From Amoebophrya sp. A120 (lineage: Eukaryota > Protista > Dinoflagellata), in assembly GCA_905178155.1 (NCBI GenBank), contig CAJINV010000093.1, positions 1-8,602 on the forward strand: 8,602 nucleotides of DNA. Reading direction: 5' to 3'. The position numbers and the translations under genes were made by a program. This document shows positions 1 through 8,602 of this stretch, piece after piece. The notes under the pieces were generated by a model. The model saw only the letters and a program-made list of their open reading frames with translations, was not told the DNA's origin and searched no databases. Positions within the stretch are counted from its first letter, which is position 1, and each line of letters opens with the position of its first letter.

Positions 1-214
1 CTTTGCAGCTGCTCCCTGCGCAGAGCGCCCACAGGCGCGGGAAGCGCGCAAGTGGTCCTGCGGGTTGGCGCGGCGCAATGTGTTTCGTTGTGCATAGGCC
101 CGCGGGGTTGTGGTCCTATCGGCAAACAGTCTTGCCCCGACCCAACAGCCTTGCGCTCCGGCGGCAGCCGGAGCATGGCTGGTTTGTACTAGTACGATAC
201 TTTTGCAGTTCATA
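1..214. mobile_element. Right-hand part of a TIR intron element (left end outside the window)
   Basis: 188-214 actagtacgatacttttgcagttcata; its reverse complement TATgaacTGCAAAAGtatcgtactagt matches the left TIR at 5821-5853 apart from the N4 positions and a 6-nt aaaagt duplication. It ends in ATA directly before coding sequence. Predicted TSD is tggga (215-219). Confidence 0.6.
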
Positions 215-3200
215 TGGGAAATTTGAGAAACTCTCCAACTCAATCCGGGAGTTGAAACAGGGGTTTGGAGCGCTGGATAGAATTGCCGGCGATAAAAATG
301 TGAAGATTGCTGATTCGCACGGAGGTTCTGGCGATGGTCCTGATGACAATGATGATGGGAAGCACAACGGCGGTCATTCTAGTTTTGGTTTATCAAATGG
401 AGAAAGAACAGCGGGTCCAGCGAACCTCCATCTGCACGACCGTGCGACGACGGAGCGCCCCGAAGGTCAGTGTGATGTGTTAGCCGGAAAGGAACAGACA
501 ACATGTGAAAATAAGCAGCTAAGGCCCGCCGCCTCCAAGAACAGTGCCGCACCTGGACACTCAACCTCTCATCACGCAGCAGTTCCGGTTCCGGCAGGAG
601 GTCCAAGCAGTACCACCACACCAACTTCCGTAATGTTTGCAAACAAGAACAACTTCTGCGAGCATCCCTCACTGGAGCAGCCGAGTTGGCCGTTGTTTCG
701 CGAAGGCTCGTCCAGCAGTACCTCCTGCAGCACCTCTGCGACGAAGACAGGAGCACTGGTTTCGCCGCGACCCCCCATGCTCCCCCCGCCGAGCTGCTTG
801 CAGGCGCAACAAGCCAATTATCCCACCACATTAGGCACTGCGACCGCCGCGGGTTTCGTCCCACCACAACTTCCAACGGTGCAGCAGCACATCGTTCCTG
901 GTGGGCCTTTTATTGCAACACAAATCACGACTTCAGCGACGACCAGTTCTAGCTCGTCGAGTTTCCAACAAGTATCCTCGCAGGCCGTGTCGTTCTCCAA
1001 TCAGTCTTCGAATCCGAACAACATGGACCGATCCTCCTCGGAACCCGTCAGTTTGCACAGTTACAGCCACACCGTGTCACTTTCCGGGGCTTCTAACTCG
1101 ATCGTGACAGTACCGACGCCATCAAATGTAAAGATGTCTGGGTCTGGAAGCTTGCCAGGTTTGTCATGCATATTATGGAAGACTCATGATGTCTGTGATG
1201 CATGCTCTAGCATGACAGATTTTTAGAGGCCTTTGTGATGCCTCTACCGCATGAGAAATGCCCTCTCCGGGTAGCACAACCACAAACTGGAGCTCTGTTG
1301 CCGGTCATACAATGCAAATTTCTTTAGAATCCAGAGACAGCATCACAAGTTTAGAATCTTCCAGACCCAGACATTTTTGCATTTGATAGACGCCAGCGAC
1401 TGGCAGTCCAACTGTGGGGTTCAATACTGTTTTTCACGGTGGTATCGCAAGAAAAAACTGTTTCACTGTAAACCTGTAATGCAGAAAATGCATGACTGAA
1501 GTGTTTGTCTTGCTACACATGCAAGACAAGTGATTTTTAGCGGTGTGTTCGCTTCGGCTCCTCGCATGGCAAGTTTTCTTTGTAATGTGTAGCGAACTTG
1601 TAATGCAAAACTTGCAAAATCCTTCCAGCGAAACAGTTTTTTCTTGCGATAGGTGGCGCGGGGGCGCCAGCAGCCAGCACGCTTGTTTTATCGTCGCACC
1701 AAGTAGAACATCTTGCGACGGGACCAAATAGCTACGCTAACGCCAGCGCCTTGTCAGGAGTTGCAGAACAAGGTCACTCGTCCTCGTGCGGCACTGCACG
1801 TCAAAGCGGAGGCAGTACTACTGCTATCGGGTTCTTTAATATCCAAGGAAAAAACTGTGTTGGTGTAAGTCTTTTGGGAAAACTGCATCACAAGTTTGTC
1901 TGCCACGACAGGAAAAACTTGTTATGCGCAGATAGGAAGGGAAAACACAGAGAAAGCGAGCCGATAATGCATGTCGAGCATGATAAAGATAAGTGTGACT
2001 GTTTTGCATTTTCTGCATCACAGATTTACTTTTACACTTACAAACACAGTTTTTTTCTTGCATATTTGAAGCAGTCCCACCCCCGCCTCCTCGTCCCGAA
2101 CGGGCGGACTCGTTGGTCGTTATGGGGACAACTGCGGGTCCTACTTCTGCAAATGCTAATCGGTTGTGCCACGACCTGCCAGGCACGATCCCCTCGCCGC
2201 CAGGAAATACCAGTTCCTCTGACGCGGCTAGTACAACACAGGATCTTCTTGAACCTCACATGCACAACAACAATCCGCCAGCGTTGCTGTTCCCGACCAT
2301 ACCGGCGTGCCCGTCCCAGCCGCACGTCGTGATTGCAGGAGCTGCCCAAGAACAGCAAGAATTGAGAGCAGAAACAACAGCTCCATCAGGCGGAGATGAG
2401 CTTGTCGTGGTACACGATATGCCAGGCGGGTATTCGGCGATCACCTCTCCTTCCATCACCAACGCGGGAGGACATCAACTCGAGGACCACGATCCTTTTC
2501 TAGACGCGTGCTTCTATCCGGAATACAGTGTGACTGTTAACGGGGAAGACGCGGACTGTAGCGCGAGCACCAGTTACTACAATGAAAAATGCCCTCACCC
2601 CGGAATTTGCAACAGTTTGTCATGCGAAGTTTCCAAATGAAAGGTTTTTGTCTTGCATAAAAGGGCTGTGAGCCTCTCTGATGCAGAATCTAGGTGCGCA
2701 AGAAGGTGTCTTGTCCAACAGCAACCGGATCTGTTAAACAGATCCGGTTGCTGTTGGGCTCCTTTGCAACACAAATTTAAGCTCTTCAGCATCGAAAATT
2801 TGTGAAGCTGAGATACGCATGACGGGGAATCATGTTTATGTTTCCATTGGAAAGGTTTGCCTTTGCACAACAAATGCTGCCAAGTTCCGGTGTGGGGGCA
2901 TTTTTCATTGTAAGACCAGTGTTGGTGGCGGTGGTCCTGCTCGCCCAGCGCAATCGCCGATAACTACGCTTGTCGCGGCTAATGCGGATCATAATGGAGA
3001 GGACCGTGCAGCAGGAGCGTCATCGTCAACATCCTGCGAATCTTCGTCAGACGACGCGGACGAGGAGTCGTTCCGCGCTTGTTCCGACGGAGAGCAAGAA
3101 GTAGGTGAAGAAGATACAACCCCCAGCAGCTCCGTCTGTACTAGTCGTCTTTCCTGCGACGTCGATGATGATACTGTATCATCTTGTTCGGGAGAGGAAG

Positions 3201-3511
3201 ATCAAGATGCTTCGTCCGACTACACCGGAACATCTTCTAGTAGCCCGTGCAACAACTCCCCTACGTCTGACGCAAGAGGACCATGGTCGTCGGATTTTTC
3301 TCCTAATGTGGGAAAGCTGGCAGTCGCAGGGGACGATGTCGACGGAGATGAATCTGTGGATAATGTGGAAGATGCAGGAGCGGATGTTTCTCATGCGGAA
3401 ATGGAAGATGAAGAACAATTTTTACAACAACAGCGAGAACAGAGGGACGAGGCGTTTGTGAAAATGTTGAAAAAGGTGATGCAAAAGGCGCTCGAAGATG
3501 AGGTGCAATAA
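215..3511 (+). CDS. 5'-truncated multi-exon gene for a ~740-aa Ser/Thr/Pro/Gly-rich low-complexity protein with an acidic C-terminal region. Exons (left TSD copy kept): ~215/220-1119, 1394-1442, 1657-1839, 2070-2574, 2921-3511
   Basis: Removing four TIR/TSD elements plus one TSD each (274, 214, 230, 346 nt) joins track ORFs 3..1226, 1751..2332, 2113..2640 and 2819..3511 into one stop-free frame ending TAA 3509-3511. Junctions read VTVPTP-ATGSPT, TVFHGG-AGAPAA, AIGFF(K/E)-AVPPPPP and SASTS-VGGGGP. No recognisable domain. Confidence 0.8.
1120..1388. mobile_element. Introner/MITE-like element, 269 bp, TSD GACGC
   Basis: 31-bp TIR 1120-1150 / 1358-1388 with 28/31 complementary. Perfect TSD at 1115-1119 and 1389-1393. 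Removing 274 nt restores the frame. No GT-AG register exists for this removal. Confidence 0.9.
1443..1651. mobile_element. Introner/MITE-like element, 209 bp, TSD GGTGG
   Basis: Perfect 22-bp TIR tatcgcaagaaaaaactgtttc at 1443-1464 / 1630-1651. Perfect TSD at 1438-1442 and 1652-1656. Removing 214 nt restores the frame and can be written as a GT-AG intron, 1439-1652. Confidence 0.93.
1840..2064. mobile_element. Introner/MITE-like element, 225 bp, TSD TTTAA/TTTGA
   Basis: TIR 1840-1861 / 2043-2064 with 20/22 complementary, extending to tgtaagt/acttaca. TSD 1835-1839 vs 2065-2069 matches 4/5. Removing 230 nt restores the frame. The TIR is homologous to that of the 1443 element. Confidence 0.88.
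2575..2915. mobile_element. Fold-back introner/MITE-like element, 341 bp, TSD CCAGT
   Basis: ~52-bp imperfect TIR 2578-2629 / 2861-2912, with the first 17 bp (tacaatgaaaaatgccc) perfect. Perfect TSD at 2570-2574 and 2916-2920. Removing 346 nt restores the frame. Confidence 0.9.
2715..2757. repeat. Perfect palindrome, 21-bp arms with a 1-nt spacer
   Basis: ccaacagcaaccggatctgtt (2715-2735), a (2736), aacagatccggttgctgttgg (2737-2757). It lies near the centre of the 2575-2915 element. Confidence 0.97.
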
Positions 3512-5074
3512 AACTAGGAAGCCTTCTACAAGTAGCACGAGCGCGACAGGATAACGATAAGTGCAAGCTTCCTCTGTGCCTGTCCTATCCTCGTAAGTAG
3601 GTCGTTGTGTGCAGGAAACAGAAACTACTGTTGCAGCACTGTGGTGAGAAACGAAGTTATCCTCTACTGGGTCTGTCTCTGTCCTACTAAAGGCGAAGCT
3701 GGAGAATCAATTATCTTTTTTTAATGCGAAAAGGAAAATTCTCTCCGTTCGAACAATCCAAGTTCGAGCTGGTAGTTCAAAGTACTAGTTTGAGTTTCTT
3801 CCGTGATGTTTTTTTATCGAGTTCATCACTTACACTTTCATTTAGATGACTTTTATCGCAAGAATTGCGATTCATCCTTTCATTGAGCAAGTCTGTCGTG
3901 CTAAAAATTGTATGACCAGAATAAAGAGTAAGAGTCGGTACGCAAGTCAAGTATTTCATCTAAACAAGCAAGAGCACGAGCCCACGTTAGCGCATTGATG
4001 ATGTACAGAGTTTTAGCTTTTACGTTGGCAGAGCCATTCATTTCTAATTCGATTTTTGGAATCCGCATCCAGTTCTGGACGTTGTTACACTTTTTTTTCA
4101 AACGCCGAAGATCGGCTTTCGACGTACTTGCATGTATGGACCATGACGACCAACCGCGACCACGTCCACGTTTCAACAACTGTATATATGAGGATGAGCA
4201 TTGACGTGACATGCGATTATATCACGGCGGATTTCTTCGTCTTTGACTTTGTAATATCGAAGCCAACATTTCGCACTGCTTGGCTCCATTTTGACTACAA
4301 CACCATAACAAAAGAGATTAAACTTCAACACCGGACGAGCGGCGGTAATTGTATGACGTTCAGAAGTAGATTCCTCAATACGACCCACCTACCCTTCTTG
4401 GGTGGAGCCGTGTTCGTAACGATTTTAGCAGTTTTTACAATGGAGCGGCCCGTTGTTGTTCTGAGTTCTGACAGTTGTTCGTGACATGAGACCAACTAGT
4501 GTTTATTACACCTGTGCGGCGAAAGTGACACCGAAAGCGAAAAGTTGTTTGCAAACGCGAGTATGCAGCTGCGCTGCGCGATCGATCAAAGCCGTTTATC
4601 TTTATGCCTTCGCTTTTATTTCGTGGCAGCCTCGTCGTAATTATCGCTCCTCGTCGTCGCAATTATTCGTCGTCGGAATCCGAATCGTTTCATTCCTGTT
4701 GGGTTGATATGTTTTTCTTTGTCGCATTCGCTTTCGAGCAGTCGATACGCTGCGTTTATAAATTCTGAAAAACTTCTACTCAGTCGTCGATCTGTTATTG
4801 AATAGGCTGACAGCAGCTGCACATGATCAAGACACCTGTTCATGGAAGAAGATGCATGTCGAGGACCACATTCACCCGCCCACAAAAATTGTCCACAACT
4901 CCAGGAGTATAATCGGTGAAGAACGACGAGTTGAAAGCGCACCGCAAGTAGCTTTTCGTCCGAGTTCGCGAGGGACGCGTTTTATTCTTGCGGAGGACGA
5001 GAACTTGTTTACTATTTCTTGAAGAACAGGTGAAACACGTGTGCACGTCGACCTGCAGGTCTTGCAGTGAAAAC

Positions 5075-6743
5075 ATGGCGAGCTTCATCCCGAGCAGCCG
5101 GCATTATCTGCAGAACGCCGTGCAGAACTTGTTCGAAAAAAACTTACAGCTGGCCACGGAGGAGGCAGAACAGCGCGGAGCGGACATCCAGCAGTATTAC
5201 GAAAACCGGCCGTATATGCCTCGCAAAAGCATTGTCGCCGTTCTTGTCCTACTGTACTACTAGCGGAAGGCGCATGACAAACTTGCTCAACATGAGGAAA
5301 GGGGTTTCTCATGCGTATTTTCCCAAACACAGAGGTTTTGTAATTGTATAGCAATATTTGCAACGAACAGCACGGTAGCGTCGATACTTTTGCAAAGGAT
5401 ACCGTACGAGTGGGGTCCGAAGCTAGACAAGCTGAACGAAGATGGCGTCATTTTGTCTCCGCCAGACAAGAAAGACTACATCAACCTGCCCCTCGTGAAG
5501 ACGATTCAAAACCCCAACAACCCGTACTCCCGAAACCCCAAGTCCGACAATTTGATCCTGAATCCAGGGAAAACGGAGGAGATATGCATGGCAACAGTAT
5601 TGTTATCGTAGTCGTACTAGTAGAAATTATCGCATGACAAATGTCGTCAGCATGAGAAATAGAATTTTTCATTCTGATGCGCGTTGGAAAGGAGATTTAT
5701 CGTGCATAATTGCAATTACTATCTACGAATACGATGCTTTTGCACATGATAGCAGAACCGGCGGAACAAGTTCGAGAAACTGGTAAACTGGAGCAAAGAG
5801 AATCTACACGACAAAAACAATATCCACTGCAAAAGTAAAAGTATCGTACTAGTCCAGCTAGTGGTGATTGCATATACAAATTTGCTTGGCATGACAAATG
5901 GAATTTGTATGTAATGCTGTTTTACCTTAGCCTTAGGAAGGTGGGAGATCTGTGATGCATAACTGCAATTAATAGTACAACGAGTGCGATATTACTTTTG
6001 CAGTGCATGAACAAGTTTGACGTGGACAGCACCAAGACGGAGGATTTGGGCAATATGCTGCGTTACTTTCGGGAAAACGTGCCCTTTGCCCAGAAACAGA
6101 AGATAGCCAAGCGGCTGCTGGATGAAGCCAAGGCGAGCATATTCGATATCCAAGTGGGGGAGAACTTTTGTCTGGCATAGCATGATTTACATAGGGTGAT
6201 GTGCATCTTCAAGGTGGATTGTGCTTTTGTTATTTCTGACATCAGATAGGTGGGCAGTATCAGCTTCAGCACACAGTAAGAAGCTGCGCTGGCCACAAGC
6301 TTTCAATCACAAGATGTGATTACACAAGGCTGTATTGGTGCCTTGTCAAGGCACCAATTTTTACACAGCAGCAAGGTCGTGCAATGTCCAAACAATTTTC
6401 TTCATCTACGTTGGATACCTGGCTTAGAAGAGTTCCGAGCGCCGATACCGATTCCTGGAGGGATACGAAATGGCTTTGCAGAGGACAAGTTCTTTGAGTT
6501 GTCAAATCTTTATGAAGGGGGCTAGTTTGTCATGCAATGGATGCATGACCATGAGAGGGCGCCTTCACAGCTGCACGCTAAGACGGACCTGCTGGTGCAC
6601 GGGATAATTTTCATCGTGCTTTTGCATCGTTCGACACGTTTAGGTGTTTGAATACAATGGCACCGACGCAAAGAGCTTTTTTCCTTCATACCCGCGGCAG
6701 AACGTCGCGTACCCGAAAATGGAGGAGTTTTTTTGAAGAATGA
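5075..6743 (+). CDS. Multi-exon gene, hypothetical protein. Firm exons 5075-5214, 5407-5582, 5757-5820, 6015-6146. Tentative exons 6423-6510 and 6696-6743. Possible earlier stops at 6180, 6427 or 6525
   Basis: ATG at 5075 (aaacATGg) and G/C-ending codons in the exons. Precise element removal gives MASFIPSSRHYLQNAVQNLFEK...YYENRP-YEWGPKLDKLNEDG...NPGKTE(E/Q)-NRRNKFEKLVNWSKENLHDKN-KFDVDSTKTEDLGNMLRYFRENVPFAQKQKIAKRLLDEAKASIF... No family recognised, and the 3' end is uncertain. Confidence 0.75.
5215..5401. mobile_element. Introner/MITE-like element, 187 bp, TSD CCGTA
   Basis: Left tatgcctcgcaaaagcattgtcg vs reverse-complemented right tatcctttgcaaaagtatcgacg. Perfect TSD at 5210-5214 and 5402-5406. 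Removing 192 nt keeps the frame and deletes the TAG at 5261-5263. Confidence 0.88.
5583..5751. mobile_element. Introner/MITE-like element, 169 bp, TSD GGAGA/GCAGA
   Basis: TIR 5583-5611 / 5723-5751 with about 19/29 complementary, and weaker pairing further in. TSD 5578-5582 vs 5752-5756 matches 4/5. Removing 174 nt keeps the frame and can be written GA-AG (5579-5752). Confidence 0.82.
5821..6009. mobile_element. Introner/MITE-like element, 189 bp, TSD AACAA
   Basis: Perfect 14-bp core cactgcaaaagtaa at 5825-5838 / 5992-6005 inside a longer TIR. Perfect TSD at 5816-5820 and 6010-6014. Removing 194 nt restores the frame. No canonical register exists for this removal. Confidence 0.88.
6147..6417. 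mobile_element. Degenerate TIR element, 271 bp, TSD not preserved
   Basis: Left tatccaa-gtgggggagaacttttgtctgg-catagcatga vs reverse-complemented right tatccaacgtagatgaagaaaattgtttggacattgcacga. Flanks ttcga/cctgg do not match. Length+5 (276) joins in frame to ORF 6316..6525. Confidence 0.65.
6511..6690. mobile_element. Degenerate TIR element, 180 bp, TSD not preserved
   Basis: Perfect 8-bp termini tatgaagg / ccttcata, then partial pairing for ~35 nt. Contains the internal motif at 6528. Flanks atctt/cccgc do not match. Confidence 0.55.
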
Positions 6744-7572
6744 AGCAACACTACAGTGTATAGACAATGCGATCAATGAATTGCACCAGCACCAGACTCG
6801 ATAGAATCAAACTCGCCTGGTCTCCTTCTTGTTCTCTTCCCGTCGAGGATGAGGATGACGCTCAACACGGACCACTTGCAGCTGGTTTTTGCTGGAGAGC
6901 TGACAGATACTAGTCGTCTTGGGATATCTATGTGTTCTGCAAAGTAGTCTCCACGGTTTTATCCGTCCGGTGTCCTCGTCGTGGTTTCTTGCGCTGAAGA
7001 ATCACGGTGCCACATCTTATTCCAATCGGTTCTTGCAGATGGTGATTACTGTCAGATTTGAAGTCTAATACTGCTGTCCACGTCGGCACGTCTTCTACTG
7101 CTTCTATTGGATGTGTCGCTAGCCGATCATTCAGGATGAATGGTAAGTAGTTTTTAGCTGGACGACAAAGTACGGAACAAATTAATAAAACCACAACTAC
7201 GGAGACGGATGAAGAGAATGGTCGAACTTAATAGAAGGTGGGAGTCATGCACAAGGAGTTGTTTGTAGTTTGAGAGTTAATGATGACGAAGTACTGCGTC
7301 CCGTAGTGCTAGTCGTTGCACTAGAGTAGAAACTAGTACAACATCATGCAGCGAGTGCTGAAAGTTGGTGTTGGAGAGCTACAGGCGCTTCTATCAGTAC
7401 CGCAGCAACTTGCTACTTTAGAGTAGTTCTACTTTGTTTTCTCATACTTGTGATGAACGTAAAACAACACAGCTTGTAGTTCAGCTGTTCTTTTCATTCT
7501 CTGCACAAAGCTCTTCTCGCCATGACGAGATAAAAGCACCTGTATATCTGATATTATCAGCACAAAAGAAAA

Positions 7573-8282
7573 ATGGACGTCACCTTTCGCGCGATCCTGT
7601 CGTTCCCCGCGGGCACCGGCGAAGCGCGGGAACAGCTAGAGAAGGTCAAGCGACTCGCGTACCCAAGAAAAAAAGATTGTAGGAGGTGTAACTTTTTTGG
7701 CTGATCAGCAATACAAATCTGTTTGGCATGACAGCAGAAACCTGTCATGCGCAGATAGCACGTCAAAACGCGCTTCCTGAATGGACCCTGCAATGCACCA
7801 TGTCCAGCATGACAGACGCAATCCTCTTACGTGTTGCGCACTACACACTTACACTAGCAATGTTTTTTTCCTGCATATCGCGAATCAGCGCTTTATCGCG
7901 GAGGACGATGGGAAGATGATGCTGTCCCTGCTGGAATCCCTGGCCTTCGAGCACAATTACGCGGGCGGACTGTTTATCATGGGAGAACTTTTTCGCAACG
8001 GCGATTTCTCGCCCGGAGTGGAAGTGGATGTGGAAAAAGTACATGTGTTTTTCTTTGGTGTACGTACAACAGCGATATTTTCTGATACAACACCTGGCAA
8101 ATATTCTCTTTTTCTCTTTAGAAGTGCAAACAACACACAAAAACACGATCTCACAGGCCATCGCATACTACATCCTGACCCTGGCACACCCCCTGATCCG
8201 CAAAGTCGTTGCGGAAGCGATGTTGCAAGAAATCGGGGCGTTCCTGTTGCAGAATTACAAGATATGCGAGTCGAAAATTTGA
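7573..8282 (+). CDS. Small Sel1-like repeat (SLR/TPR-class) protein, ~122 aa. Exons 7573-7659, 7883-8038, 8157-8282 (possible alternative last exon to 8547)
   Basis: MDVTFRAILSFPAGTGEAREQLEKVKRLA-NQRFIAEDDGKMMLSLLESLAFEHNYAGGLFIMGELFRNGDFSPGVEVDVEK-AIAYYILTLAHPLIRKVVAEAMLQEIGAFLLQNYKICESKI. GLFIMGELFRNG...GVEVDVEKAIAYY fits the Sel1 consensus (LGxxYxxG..GVxxDxxKAxxYY) and is only formed by splicing 8039-8156. Confidence 0.82.
7660..7877. mobile_element. Introner/MITE-like element, 218 bp, TSD TCGCG
   Basis: TIR 7660-7679 / 7858-7877 with 16/20 complementary. Perfect TSD at 7655-7659 and 7878-7882. Removing 223 nt restores the frame (EKVKRLA-NQRF). Same family as the 1443 and 1840 elements. 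Internal 9-bp hairpin at 7726-7750. Confidence 0.9.
8039..8156 (+). other. Canonical phase-0 GT-AG intron, 118 nt, with residual inverted repeat
   Basis: aaa|gtacat...ctcacag|gcc. Splicing reconstitutes the Sel1 motif. Subterminal inverted repeat gtgttttt / aaaaacac. Confidence 0.8.
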
Positions 8283-8474
8283 TTATTGATTAACGATCGT
8301 ACGTGACACGTACAAAATGCATGACGAGCCTCTGGAGCCACGCTTATTGGTATTCGAGGCTGTTCCTCTCTCTGCGTTTTTGTAATGCTGAACAAGATAC
8401 GCATACGCATACGACAATCATTATGGGACTGTCAGGATCGAAATCGACAAAATCGAAATAATCTGTAATGCATA
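8263..8474. mobile_element. Possible highly degenerate TIR element, 212 bp
   Basis: Termini tatgc / gcata with patchy pairing for ~35 nt. Flanks caaga/aaaat match 2/5. Removing length+5 opens a frame to TAA 8545-8547. Confidence 0.3.
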
Positions 8475-8602
8475 AAAATGCTACGCAAAAAGCGACTCTA
8501 TTGCAGAGGATGCAAGGAAGGCGGATTGTAGTCCTGGTAAGGGTTAAGTGTTGGGCTGCTGACTAGCATGACAGAAGGCAGCTCTTTTGCCCTAAACCGC
8601 AT

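What the first reader, a model, noticed from the sequence alone, without database searches (positions are those of the whole stretch)
1115..7882. Nearly all introns are TIR + 5-bp TSD elements whose precise removal restores the reading frame without GT-AG
Seen: eight elements (1120-1388, 1443-1651, 1840-2064, 2575-2915, 5215-5401, 5583-5751, 5821-6009, 7660-7877) interrupt three genes. Their TSDs are GACGC, GGTGG, TTTAA/TTTGA, CCAGT, CCGTA, GGAGA/GCAGA, AACAA and TCGCG. All eight restore frame at length+5, which has a chance of (1/3)^8, about 1.5e-4, if lengths were random. Only the GGTGG element has a GT-AG register. Known: DNA-transposon-derived introners occur in Micromonas and Aureococcus but carry or co-opt splice sites, and IR/DR-bounded non-canonical introns are described in Amoebophrya. 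Inference: these insertions are removed scarlessly using the end-to-end hairpin or TIR motif rather than splice dinucleotides. That implies a structure-guided splicing mode, or alternatively IES-like DNA excision.
Basis: partly seen in the sequence, partly recalled or inferred. Interest (0 to 1): 0.92.

Follow-up and report, generated by a model that had tools for sequence, protein, structure and literature searches.

The report
Amoebophrya hairpin transposon introns, already described
These are the published transposon-like introns of the marine parasite Amoebophrya A120: assemblies that behave like RNA lack them cleanly although normal splice signals are missing, and the cell likely finds the cut sites from the elements' mirror-image ends, by a machine that is still unknown.

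Summary
Observation confirmed; the class is already in print. Two window genes match annotated Amoebophrya sp. A120 proteins, and the elements fit the A120 introners of Farhat et al. 2021 (TAT-N7-AAA ends, 3-5 bp direct repeats, non-GT-AG borders). RNA-like contigs skip 230, 346 and 192 nt exactly and 274+214 nt in sum; the other three gaps agree with contig lengths and annotated proteins. A DNA-like run keeps the elements, so DNA excision is unlikely. Most likely an altered spliceosome guided by the TIR ends; a separate Euglena-like machine remains open. Earlier scan notes report similar hairpin introns in other dinoflagellates (not tested here).

The parts
1..218 (+).
   Evidence: RNA-like records continue 454 and 1413 nt upstream of 214 off the window; end matches elements in related loci
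216..3511 (+). Gene 1, 3' part of the coding region (743 codons after four removals, low complexity, no family found); transcript-like contigs end at 4322/4323
   Evidence: no Pfam hit under E 0.1 for its exons, no protein hit for the last exon
1120..1388 (+). E1, TIR element, TSD GACGC; 274 nt removed
   Evidence: E1+E2 leave 49 nt between pieces 214-1114 and 1652-1838 in X1 and X2
1443..1651 (+). E2, TSD GGTGG; 214 nt removed; interior related to E3 and E8 in the opposite orientation
1840..2064 (+). E3, TSD TTTAA/TTTGA; 230 nt removed; the mismatch limits the cut to 1 or 0 nt before the TIR
   Evidence: pieces end 1838 and resume 2069 in X1 and X2
2575..2915 (+). E4, TSD CCAGT; 346 nt removed; holds a perfect 21-bp internal palindrome (2715-2757)
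   Evidence: pieces end 2568, resume 2915
5075..6736 (+). Gene 2, 197 codons with five elements removed (204 with Eb retained, stop at 6523-6525); small protein of unknown function with four relatives
5215..5401 (+). E5, TSD CCGTA; 192 nt removed (not the 186-nt GT-AG pair)
   Evidence: pieces end 5209, resume 5402 in X1 and X2; P0001 and four relatives have no extra residues there
5583..5751 (+). E6, TSD GGAGA/GCAGA; 174 nt removed
   Evidence: piece ends 5579; record length fits; P0001
5821..6009 (+). E7, TSD AACAA; 194 nt removed
   Evidence: record-length arithmetic and P0001; no piece listed at this joint
6147..6417 (+).
   Evidence: bin depths fit exon ends at 6144 and 6421 in X1 and X2; P0001; duplex reached by 4 of 300 shuffles
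6464..6690 (+).
   Evidence: pieces 6433-6723 (depth 4.4) and from 6694; bubble arithmetic; C-termini of relatives match the spliced form; no significant terminal duplex
7573..8261 (+). Gene 3, first 116 codons of a 1301-aa protein (weak TPR_12 hit below cut-off)
7660..7877 (+). E8, TSD TCGCG; 223 nt removed (not the 244-nt GT-AG pair)
   Evidence: piece ends 7654 in X2; P0002
8039..8156 (+). Canonical GT-AG intron, 118 nt, no terminal duplex
   Evidence: P0002
8262..8602 (+). E9: intron starting one base before a TAT-type end at 8263 and running off the window; a second element's left end lies inside it at 8422
   Evidence: P0002 exon ends at 8261; matches to related loci begin at 8422; X5 joints to 8422

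Best explanation
The elements are non-coding, TIR-ended insertions with 5-bp target duplications in genes of Amoebophrya A120 that are missing from RNA-like assemblies at exactly length+5, likely because an altered spliceosome cuts the pre-mRNA at fixed distances from the two mirror-image ends instead of at GT-AG. Steps: (1) a DDE-type transposase acting in trans inserts a copy into an exon in either orientation and duplicates 5 bp (TSD and both orientations shown; enzyme inferred, not found). (2) The transcript carries the same motif, TAT-N5-G-N-AAAA, at the 5' end and mirrored at the 3' end, able to pair end to end (motif shown; pairing predicted). (3) The cuts fall 1 nt before the left TIR and 4 nt after the right TIR, which leaves one TSD copy and the original mRNA (length shown; the single register is inferred from three junctions). 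(4) Because the signal is symmetrical and carried by the element, any target site and both orientations are tolerated, which would explain the spread (inferred). (5) As TIRs erode, removal becomes leaky (one case). Odds: A120 introners removed at RNA level about 0.93; ends set by the TIR rather than by flanking dinucleotides about 0.85; the catalyst is an altered U2-type spliceosome about 0.55.
For: Identity: P0001 and P0002, named Amoebophrya sp. A120 by the tool, match window exons at 100% and equal my spliced models over 204 of 204 and the first 116 residues. Removal: listed pieces of X1 and X2 skip 1839-2068, 2569-2914, 5210-5401; the gene 1 model is 3045 nt, as is record 1 from 455 to 3499. 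X1/X2 behave as RNA: zero depth at 6889-7175, common end at 4322/4323, gene-specific depth, while X5 covers all 30 bins and keeps elements in unbroken contigs such as 2750-5931. Register: E3 allows offsets 1 or 0, Ea and Eb 2 or 1; all nine predominant A120 border types in Farhat Table S4 have T as second base. Related assembly (141 loci): 266 of 393 flank-blind detections have an exact 5-bp TSD; 87 of 93 testable ones need one TSD copy between flanks to keep frame; 10 of 182 allow GT-AG against 8.7 expected; orientation to transcription 43 same, 47 opposite, 14 unclear of 104, 27:19 in strong-strand loci. In the window E2 and E3 share 106 of 158 aligned interior bases in opposite orientation (z 11.2; same orientation z 1.6). 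For a spliceosome: a GT-AG intron sits in the same gene as E8; A120 has 83 of 89 spliceosomal proteins but no U1 found, whereas a strain with GT-AG introns has U1; tunicate TIR-derived non-canonical introns are reported as spliceosomal.
Against: The RNA label of X1/X2 is the tool's guess, they are one sample, they are contigs and not reads, and X5 may be the source of the window itself. E6, E7, E8, Ea and Eb joints rest partly on length and depth arithmetic and on annotation that may derive from the same RNA. The single register rests on three junctions and assumes all elements share one. No oriented branch-point or 3' dinucleotide is evident, which is hard for a standard spliceosome; my idea of a conserved last G (8 of 11 in the window) failed in the larger set (52 of 182). 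Eb lacks a significant terminal duplex (116 of 300 shuffles as strong) yet is mostly removed, so strong end pairing is not required. Intron phase is uneven (42/19/26, p 0.008), which unconstrained flanks do not explain. No RNA exists here for the related assembly; removal there is inferred from reading frames. No experiment on the catalyst was possible.
Confidence: 0.55

Rival explanations
1. Same elements and RNA-level removal, but by a second, non-spliceosomal or separately specialised machine that measures from the paired TIR ends, as proposed for Euglena nonconventional introns.
For: Both orientations are removed; no constraint on flanking bases; cuts sit at fixed spacers from a paired motif, like the Euglena code of 3-nt and 5-6-nt spacers with required pairing; Euglena introns leave as circles without lariats (review).
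Against: A near-complete spliceosome and GT-AG introns coexist in the same genes; 15% of canonical A120 introns show the same IR/DR layout; the second intron base is T as in GT; pairing near the ends is often imperfect.
Confidence: 0.33
2. Ordinary or mildly relaxed spliceosomal splicing at nearby or co-opted GT/GC/GA-AG sites, as in Micromonas, Aureococcus and Polarella introners.
For: E2 has a GT-AG register; in-frame GT-AG pairs exist near E5 and E8; last-base G in 8 of 11 window elements.
Against: Contigs show 192 nt, not 186, at E5 and a piece ending at 7654, not 7644, at E8; E3 allows only AT-TG or TA-GA; 10 of 182 allow GT-AG, as by chance.
Confidence: 0.04
3. IES-like excision from DNA, giving an element-free transcribed genome.
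For: Transposon anatomy, scarless removal and orientation independence are what DNA excision would also give; contigs drop rare variants, so rare excised DNA is not excluded.
Against: X5 contigs of depth 25-35 cross element ends without a break (188-1163, 2035-2656, 2750-5931, 5902-7760, 7746-8450); element-free contigs are confined to gene-like stretches and also lack most of the bin holding the GT-AG intron; Eb is partly retained.
Confidence: 0.04
4. Junctions are artefacts of reverse-transcriptase template switching across hairpins at the 5-bp repeats.
For: Strong hairpins closed by short direct repeats are the known setting for this artefact (own knowledge); only short-read cDNA-type contigs were seen.
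Against: Ea and Eb have no direct repeat and Eb no strong duplex, yet are skipped; every element in the window interrupts an otherwise long reading frame, and relatives' proteins align across E5, Ea and the Eb-spliced end, so the mRNA must lack them.
Confidence: 0.02

Closest known systems
Introner elements / non-canonical introns of Amoebophrya sp. A120 (Farhat et al. 2021, PMC7789003)
   Same: Same organism by protein names; IR ends starting TAT, seven looser bases, then at least three A; 3-5 bp direct repeats (5 bp in their Fig. S19 legend); about 240 nt mean length; non-GT-AG borders supported by RNA-seq; hairpin model; no transposase in the element.
   Different: Nothing in kind. The paper's text calls border positions variable or unknown and does not mention element orientation; a fixed 1/4 register, orientation independence, unconstrained TSDs and TSD-less eroded copies are added here.
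Euglena nonconventional introns (PMC12501133; review PMC11282704)
   Same: No GT-AG; paired ends; slidable direct repeats; cut sites at fixed spacers from a paired motif; unknown machinery; coexist with conventional introns.
   Different: Motif CAG/CTG with 3-nt and 5-6-nt spacers and a purine starting the next exon, against TAT-N5-G-N-AAAA with 1 and 4 nt and no exon base rule here; unrelated lineage; tested experimentally there, not here.
TIR/TSD introners of Aureococcus, Micromonas, Symbiodinium and Polarella (PMC9860276; bioRxiv 10.1101/2020.10.14.339549)
   Same: Non-autonomous DNA transposons making introns without changing mRNA length; some Polarella classes and Aureococcus elements work in either orientation.
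   Different: They carry or recruit GT/GC/GA and AG, so their TSDs are constrained; here TSD composition is flat and GT-AG is possible only at chance rate.
Fritillaria borealis non-canonical introns (review PMC11282704)
   Same: MITE-like TIR/TSD introns with non-canonical ends, reported as removed by a changed U2 spliceosome.
   Different: Preferred borders AG-AC/AG-AT and an exonic TAC; no such preference here.
Ciliate IESs (own knowledge, no call)
   Same: Transposon-derived, precise removal leaving one repeat copy.
   Different: Removed from DNA during somatic genome building; here the DNA-like run keeps the elements.

Membership tests
A120 introner elements (Farhat 2021) | Located in the A120 genome | tested here: met
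   100% matches to two proteins named A120
A120 introner elements (Farhat 2021) | 8-20 nt inverted repeats pairing 5' and 3' ends | tested here: met
   8 of 8 named elements, also Ea; not significant for Eb
A120 introner elements (Farhat 2021) | 3-5 nt direct repeats over the borders | tested here: met
   6 of 8 perfect, 2 of 8 with one mismatch; lost in Ea and Eb
A120 introner elements (Farhat 2021) | IR motif TAT + 7 nt + at least three A | tested here: met
   13 of the 16 ends of the eight elements begin TAT, TAC or CAT-type as listed (TAT at 11, TAC 2, CAT 2, TCT 1); A-run at 11-13 in 95-99% of ends in related loci, where the detector partly required it
A120 introner elements (Farhat 2021) | Absent from mRNA with non-GT-AG borders | tested here: met
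   direct for E3, E4, E5; in sum for E1+E2; by arithmetic and annotation for E6-E8; RNA label of the runs is a guess
A120 introner elements (Farhat 2021) | Repeated elsewhere in the genome (family member) | tested here: met
   very high summed depth over E1-E4, E6-E8 in X5; interior hits in related loci for 7 of 10 elements, none for E5, Ea, Eb; A120 genome itself not held
MITE / non-autonomous class II transposon | TIRs, fixed-length TSD, no coding capacity | tested here: met
   107 of 127 E1-family candidates with exact 5-bp TSD; stops in at least two frames of each element
MITE / non-autonomous class II transposon | Cognate autonomous transposase | tested here: inconclusive
   six long copies in the loci hold no stop-free stretch over 150 codons; Farhat found no A120 transposase; Gozashti 2025 describes an A120 TIR family with an integrase-related ORF, link to these families not tested
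MITE / non-autonomous class II transposon | Empty sites with one TSD copy in related genomes | tested here: inconclusive
   protein relatives align without gap over E5 and Ea, but no orthologous DNA was obtained
Canonical spliceosomal introners (carry or co-opt GT/GC/GA-AG) | Splice dinucleotides in element or TSD | tested here: not met
   1 of 8 in the window; 10 of 182 against 8.7 by chance
Euglena-type nonconventional introns | CAG/CTG motif with 3 and 5-6 nt spacers | tested here: not met
   ends are TAT...ATA with offsets 1 and 4
Euglena-type nonconventional introns | Release as circles without lariat; pairing required | not testable with these tools
   needs lariat/circle sequencing and reporters
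IES-like DNA elimination | Element-free DNA in the transcribed genome | tested here: not met
   X5 contigs keep the elements; rare excised molecules not excluded

The most novel reading that the evidence does not exclude
A120 has a second splicing system, independent of GT-AG, branch point and orientation, that measures 1 and 4 nt from a symmetrical transposon-end motif: a 'ruler' that makes any insertion of these transposons harmless, evolved convergently with the Euglena system. Eroded copies without TSD such as Ea and Eb give the exact cut sites genome-wide, and leaky ones create alternative protein ends.
Probability: 0.33. Interest if true: 0.8.

Novelty: already known. Interest (0 to 1): 0.33.

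Why it matters
The class is published, so the window is a clean example rather than a discovery. How A120 removes tens of thousands of such introns is still open. The additions make it testable: non-slidable eroded elements fix the cut sites, both-orientation removal rules out an oriented internal signal unless it is symmetrical, and flat TSD composition separates these elements from all introners that recruit splice sites. One public gene model (P0001) appears to keep a leaky element and so has the minor C-terminus.

Tried and rejected
A conserved G as last intron base (relaxed AG): 8 of 11 in the window, p 0.002, but 52 of 182 in oriented perfect-TSD elements of the related loci, so rejected as a general rule; it may still hold for older elements. 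A palindromic target preference (C at 2, G at 4): flat composition in 266 TSDs. Pinning the register from 41 imperfect TSDs in the related loci: uninformative. GT-AG alternatives 5212-5397 and 7645-7888: contradicted. No whole genome is held for the window. Pfam on 11 exon pieces: one weak hit at E 0.16, and one piece was given in the wrong frame; on P0001/P0002 only sub-threshold hits. No protein hit for gene 1's last exon. TIR pattern in viral contigs: 0; gene 2 relatives in viral contigs: 0. Rfam: 0. No orthologous DNA of window genes in the loci. No transposase ORF in six long copies. Earlier-findings look-ups by sequence and place were empty.
Full report
Observation. Removing length+5 gives a 743-codon frame in gene 1, against at most 567 for any of 20 altered removals, 197 codons in gene 2 against 52-157 for the 15 alterations of E5-E7, and 165 against 40-96 in gene 3. 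One of eight (E2) has a GT-AG register. The terminal 26/30-nt duplex is reached by 0-3 of 300 shuffles for each of the eight.

Origin. Exon searches returned one protein each, P0001 (204 aa) and P0002 (1301 aa), 100% identical and named Amoebophrya sp. A120 by the tool. My models equal P0001 entirely and P0002 over its first 116 residues. Farhat et al. 2021 (PMC7789003; I saw the abstract, sections 10, 11, 12, 16, 32, passages, and parts 2 and 3 of 5 of the supplement as text, no figures) report over 60% non-canonical introns supported by RNA-seq, 8-20 nt IRs, 3-5 nt DRs, an A120 IR motif of TAT, seven looser bases and three A, 29,850 repeated introns, a hairpin model, 83 of 89 spliceosomal proteins and no U1 snRNA found. 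The elements meet these features, so the class is known.

RNA or DNA. Four of 11 listed runs were laid. X1 and X2 (one sample; RNA is the tool's guess) have depth only on gene-like stretches, none at 6889-7175, and both end at 4322/4323. Their listed pieces skip 1839-2068 (230), 2569-2914 (346) and 5210-5401 (192), and leave 49 letters between 1114 and 1652, the length of the exon between E1 and E2 if 274+214 are removed. Pieces end at 5579 (E6) and 7654 (E8). X5 covers all 30 bins, at 25-38 in unique stretches, with contigs that cross element ends unbroken (for example 2750-5931); it may be the window's own source and contigs drop rare variants. X9 raw reads do not cover the locus. Read-level joints for E6-E8 were not obtained; they rest on record lengths and on the annotated proteins, which may share their RNA source with X1/X2.

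Two missed elements fix the register. Unexplained letters in X1 record 2 and X2 record 7 led to two eroded elements, Ea (6147-6417) and Eb (6464-6690), whose flanks match at 1 of 5 positions. A model with exons 6010-6144, 6421-6461 and 6694 onward predicts bin depths 7.66, 3.16 and 1.11 against 7.66, 3.15 and 1.11 observed; without them it predicts 10.42, 0 and 2.1. Three repeat-containing bins are higher than predicted in both models. In X1, Eb forms a bubble: retained path depth 4.4, skipped path about 14.4, which predicts 6.85 and 8.14 against 6.8 and 8.14. Relatives named AT5.2 and A25 end like the Eb-skipped form, not like the annotated one. At Ea those two relatives have Asp where A120 has Gly; a cut flush with the TIR would give Asp, but the depth arithmetic and P0001 both give the Gly form. 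E3 allows the intron to start 1 or 0 nt before the TIR, Ea and Eb 2 or 1, E6 3 to 0. The only shared value is 1, with the 3' cut 4 nt after the right TIR. In Farhat's Table S4 all nine predominant A120 border types have T as second base, as this register predicts; their text places four DR bases upstream of the 5' end. So the register is partly implied in print.

Related assembly. Of 127 E1-family candidates 107 have an exact 5-bp TSD. A flank-blind detector found 393 elements, 266 with 5 of 5 and 49 with 4 of 5 TSD matches; it gave 8 hits in shuffled versus 189 in real sequence for 40 loci. Strand was called from a codon model; locus and junction calls agreed in 223 of 244. Of 315 elements with at least 4 of 5, 93 passed the codon-score filters and 87 of them need one TSD copy to keep frame. 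TSD bases are flat, and 10 of 182 allow GT-AG against 8.7 expected. Orientation to transcription is 43 same, 47 opposite, 14 unclear of 104 E1-family copies, 27:19 in strong-strand loci, and 5 of 8 neighbouring pairs in one open frame are opposite, three of the five from one locus. In the window, E2 and E3, both skipped in one contig, are antiparallel relatives. The 5' and 3' ends have the same profile. Rare substitutions are fewer in the outer 30 nt than inside (0.97% against 1.41%, p 0.012; 93 copies; the detection filter may contribute), while the two TIRs of a copy differ at positions 4, 5, 7 and 10 in 32, 28, 52 and 35 of 93 copies. Against a simple picture: phase is uneven, 42/19/26, and my last-base-G idea failed. 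No RNA was available for these loci.

Mechanism. Shown: anatomy, removal length, retention in DNA-like contigs, both orientations, free flanks. Inferred: transposase origin, one fixed register, recognition of the TIR motif and/or its duplex, and the catalyst. I favour an altered U2-type spliceosome (0.55) because the parts are present, a GT-AG intron shares a gene with E8, the second base is T, and U1 is unfound in A120 but found in a strain with GT-AG introns (PMC12005148, passages). A separate machine as in Euglena (PMC12501133, passages; review PMC11282704, section 6 and passages) gets 0.33. Co-opted canonical sites, DNA excision and a reverse-transcriptase artefact share the rest.

Prior work. 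Gozashti 2025 (PMC12130899, passages) lists diverse A120 introners, one TIR family with an integrase-related ORF. Either-orientation introners are known in Polarella and Aureococcus but recruit splice sites from constrained TSDs (bioRxiv 10.1101/2020.10.14.339549, passages; PMC9860276, passages). A 2024 review repeats Farhat's numbers (PMC11453091, passages). Five searches and a word search of Farhat's text gave no statement of a fixed register or of orientation independence for A120; Farhat's Figures 3, 4 and S19-S25, Gozashti's datasets and subscription journals were not seen and may hold it. IES biology and template switching are from my own knowledge. Two earlier scan notes describe similar hairpin introns in other dinoflagellates; I did not test them.

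Verdict. Real, confirmed, already known as A120 introners; modest added value in the register, orientation and leakiness observations. Interest 0.33.

Noticed in passing
window 6464-6690: Eroded element Eb is retained in about 23% of X1 depth and changes the protein's C-terminus; the public model P0001 has the retained form while named relatives match the skipped form.
   Followed up: yes
window 8262-8602: An intron starting at 8262 holds the left end of another high-copy element at 8422, so a nested insertion; the right ends lie outside the window.
   Followed up: partly
window 1-218: Right part of a further TIR element, absent from the RNA-like contigs.
   Followed up: partly
window 2715-2757: Perfect 21-bp palindrome at the tip of E4's hairpin.
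   Followed up: no
window 1355-1388: Raw RNA reads of run X9, which does not hold this locus, carry an E1-type end at what looks like one other locus (72-89 reads with uniform loose ends): a retained family member in another strain's transcript.
   Followed up: no
window 5075-6736: Gene 2 encodes a roughly 200-aa protein with no Pfam family and only four relatives among 1.84 billion representatives, with a conserved N-terminal block.
   Followed up: partly
window 3512-4322: Long element-free 3' untranslated stretch of gene 1; both RNA-like contigs end within one base of each other.
   Followed up: no
loci L001-L141: A related assembly shares the E1, E2/E3/E8, E4, E6 and E7 families with the window, so families are not confined to one assembly; intron phase there is biased to phase 0 (42/19/26) for no known reason.
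   Followed up: partly
window 1159-1183, 5271-5284, 5631-5644, 6525-6549, 7801-7816, 8560-8575: A short GCATGACA-type word and its reverse complement recur inside many unrelated elements; a candidate sub-terminal binding site or symmetrical internal signal.
   Followed up: no
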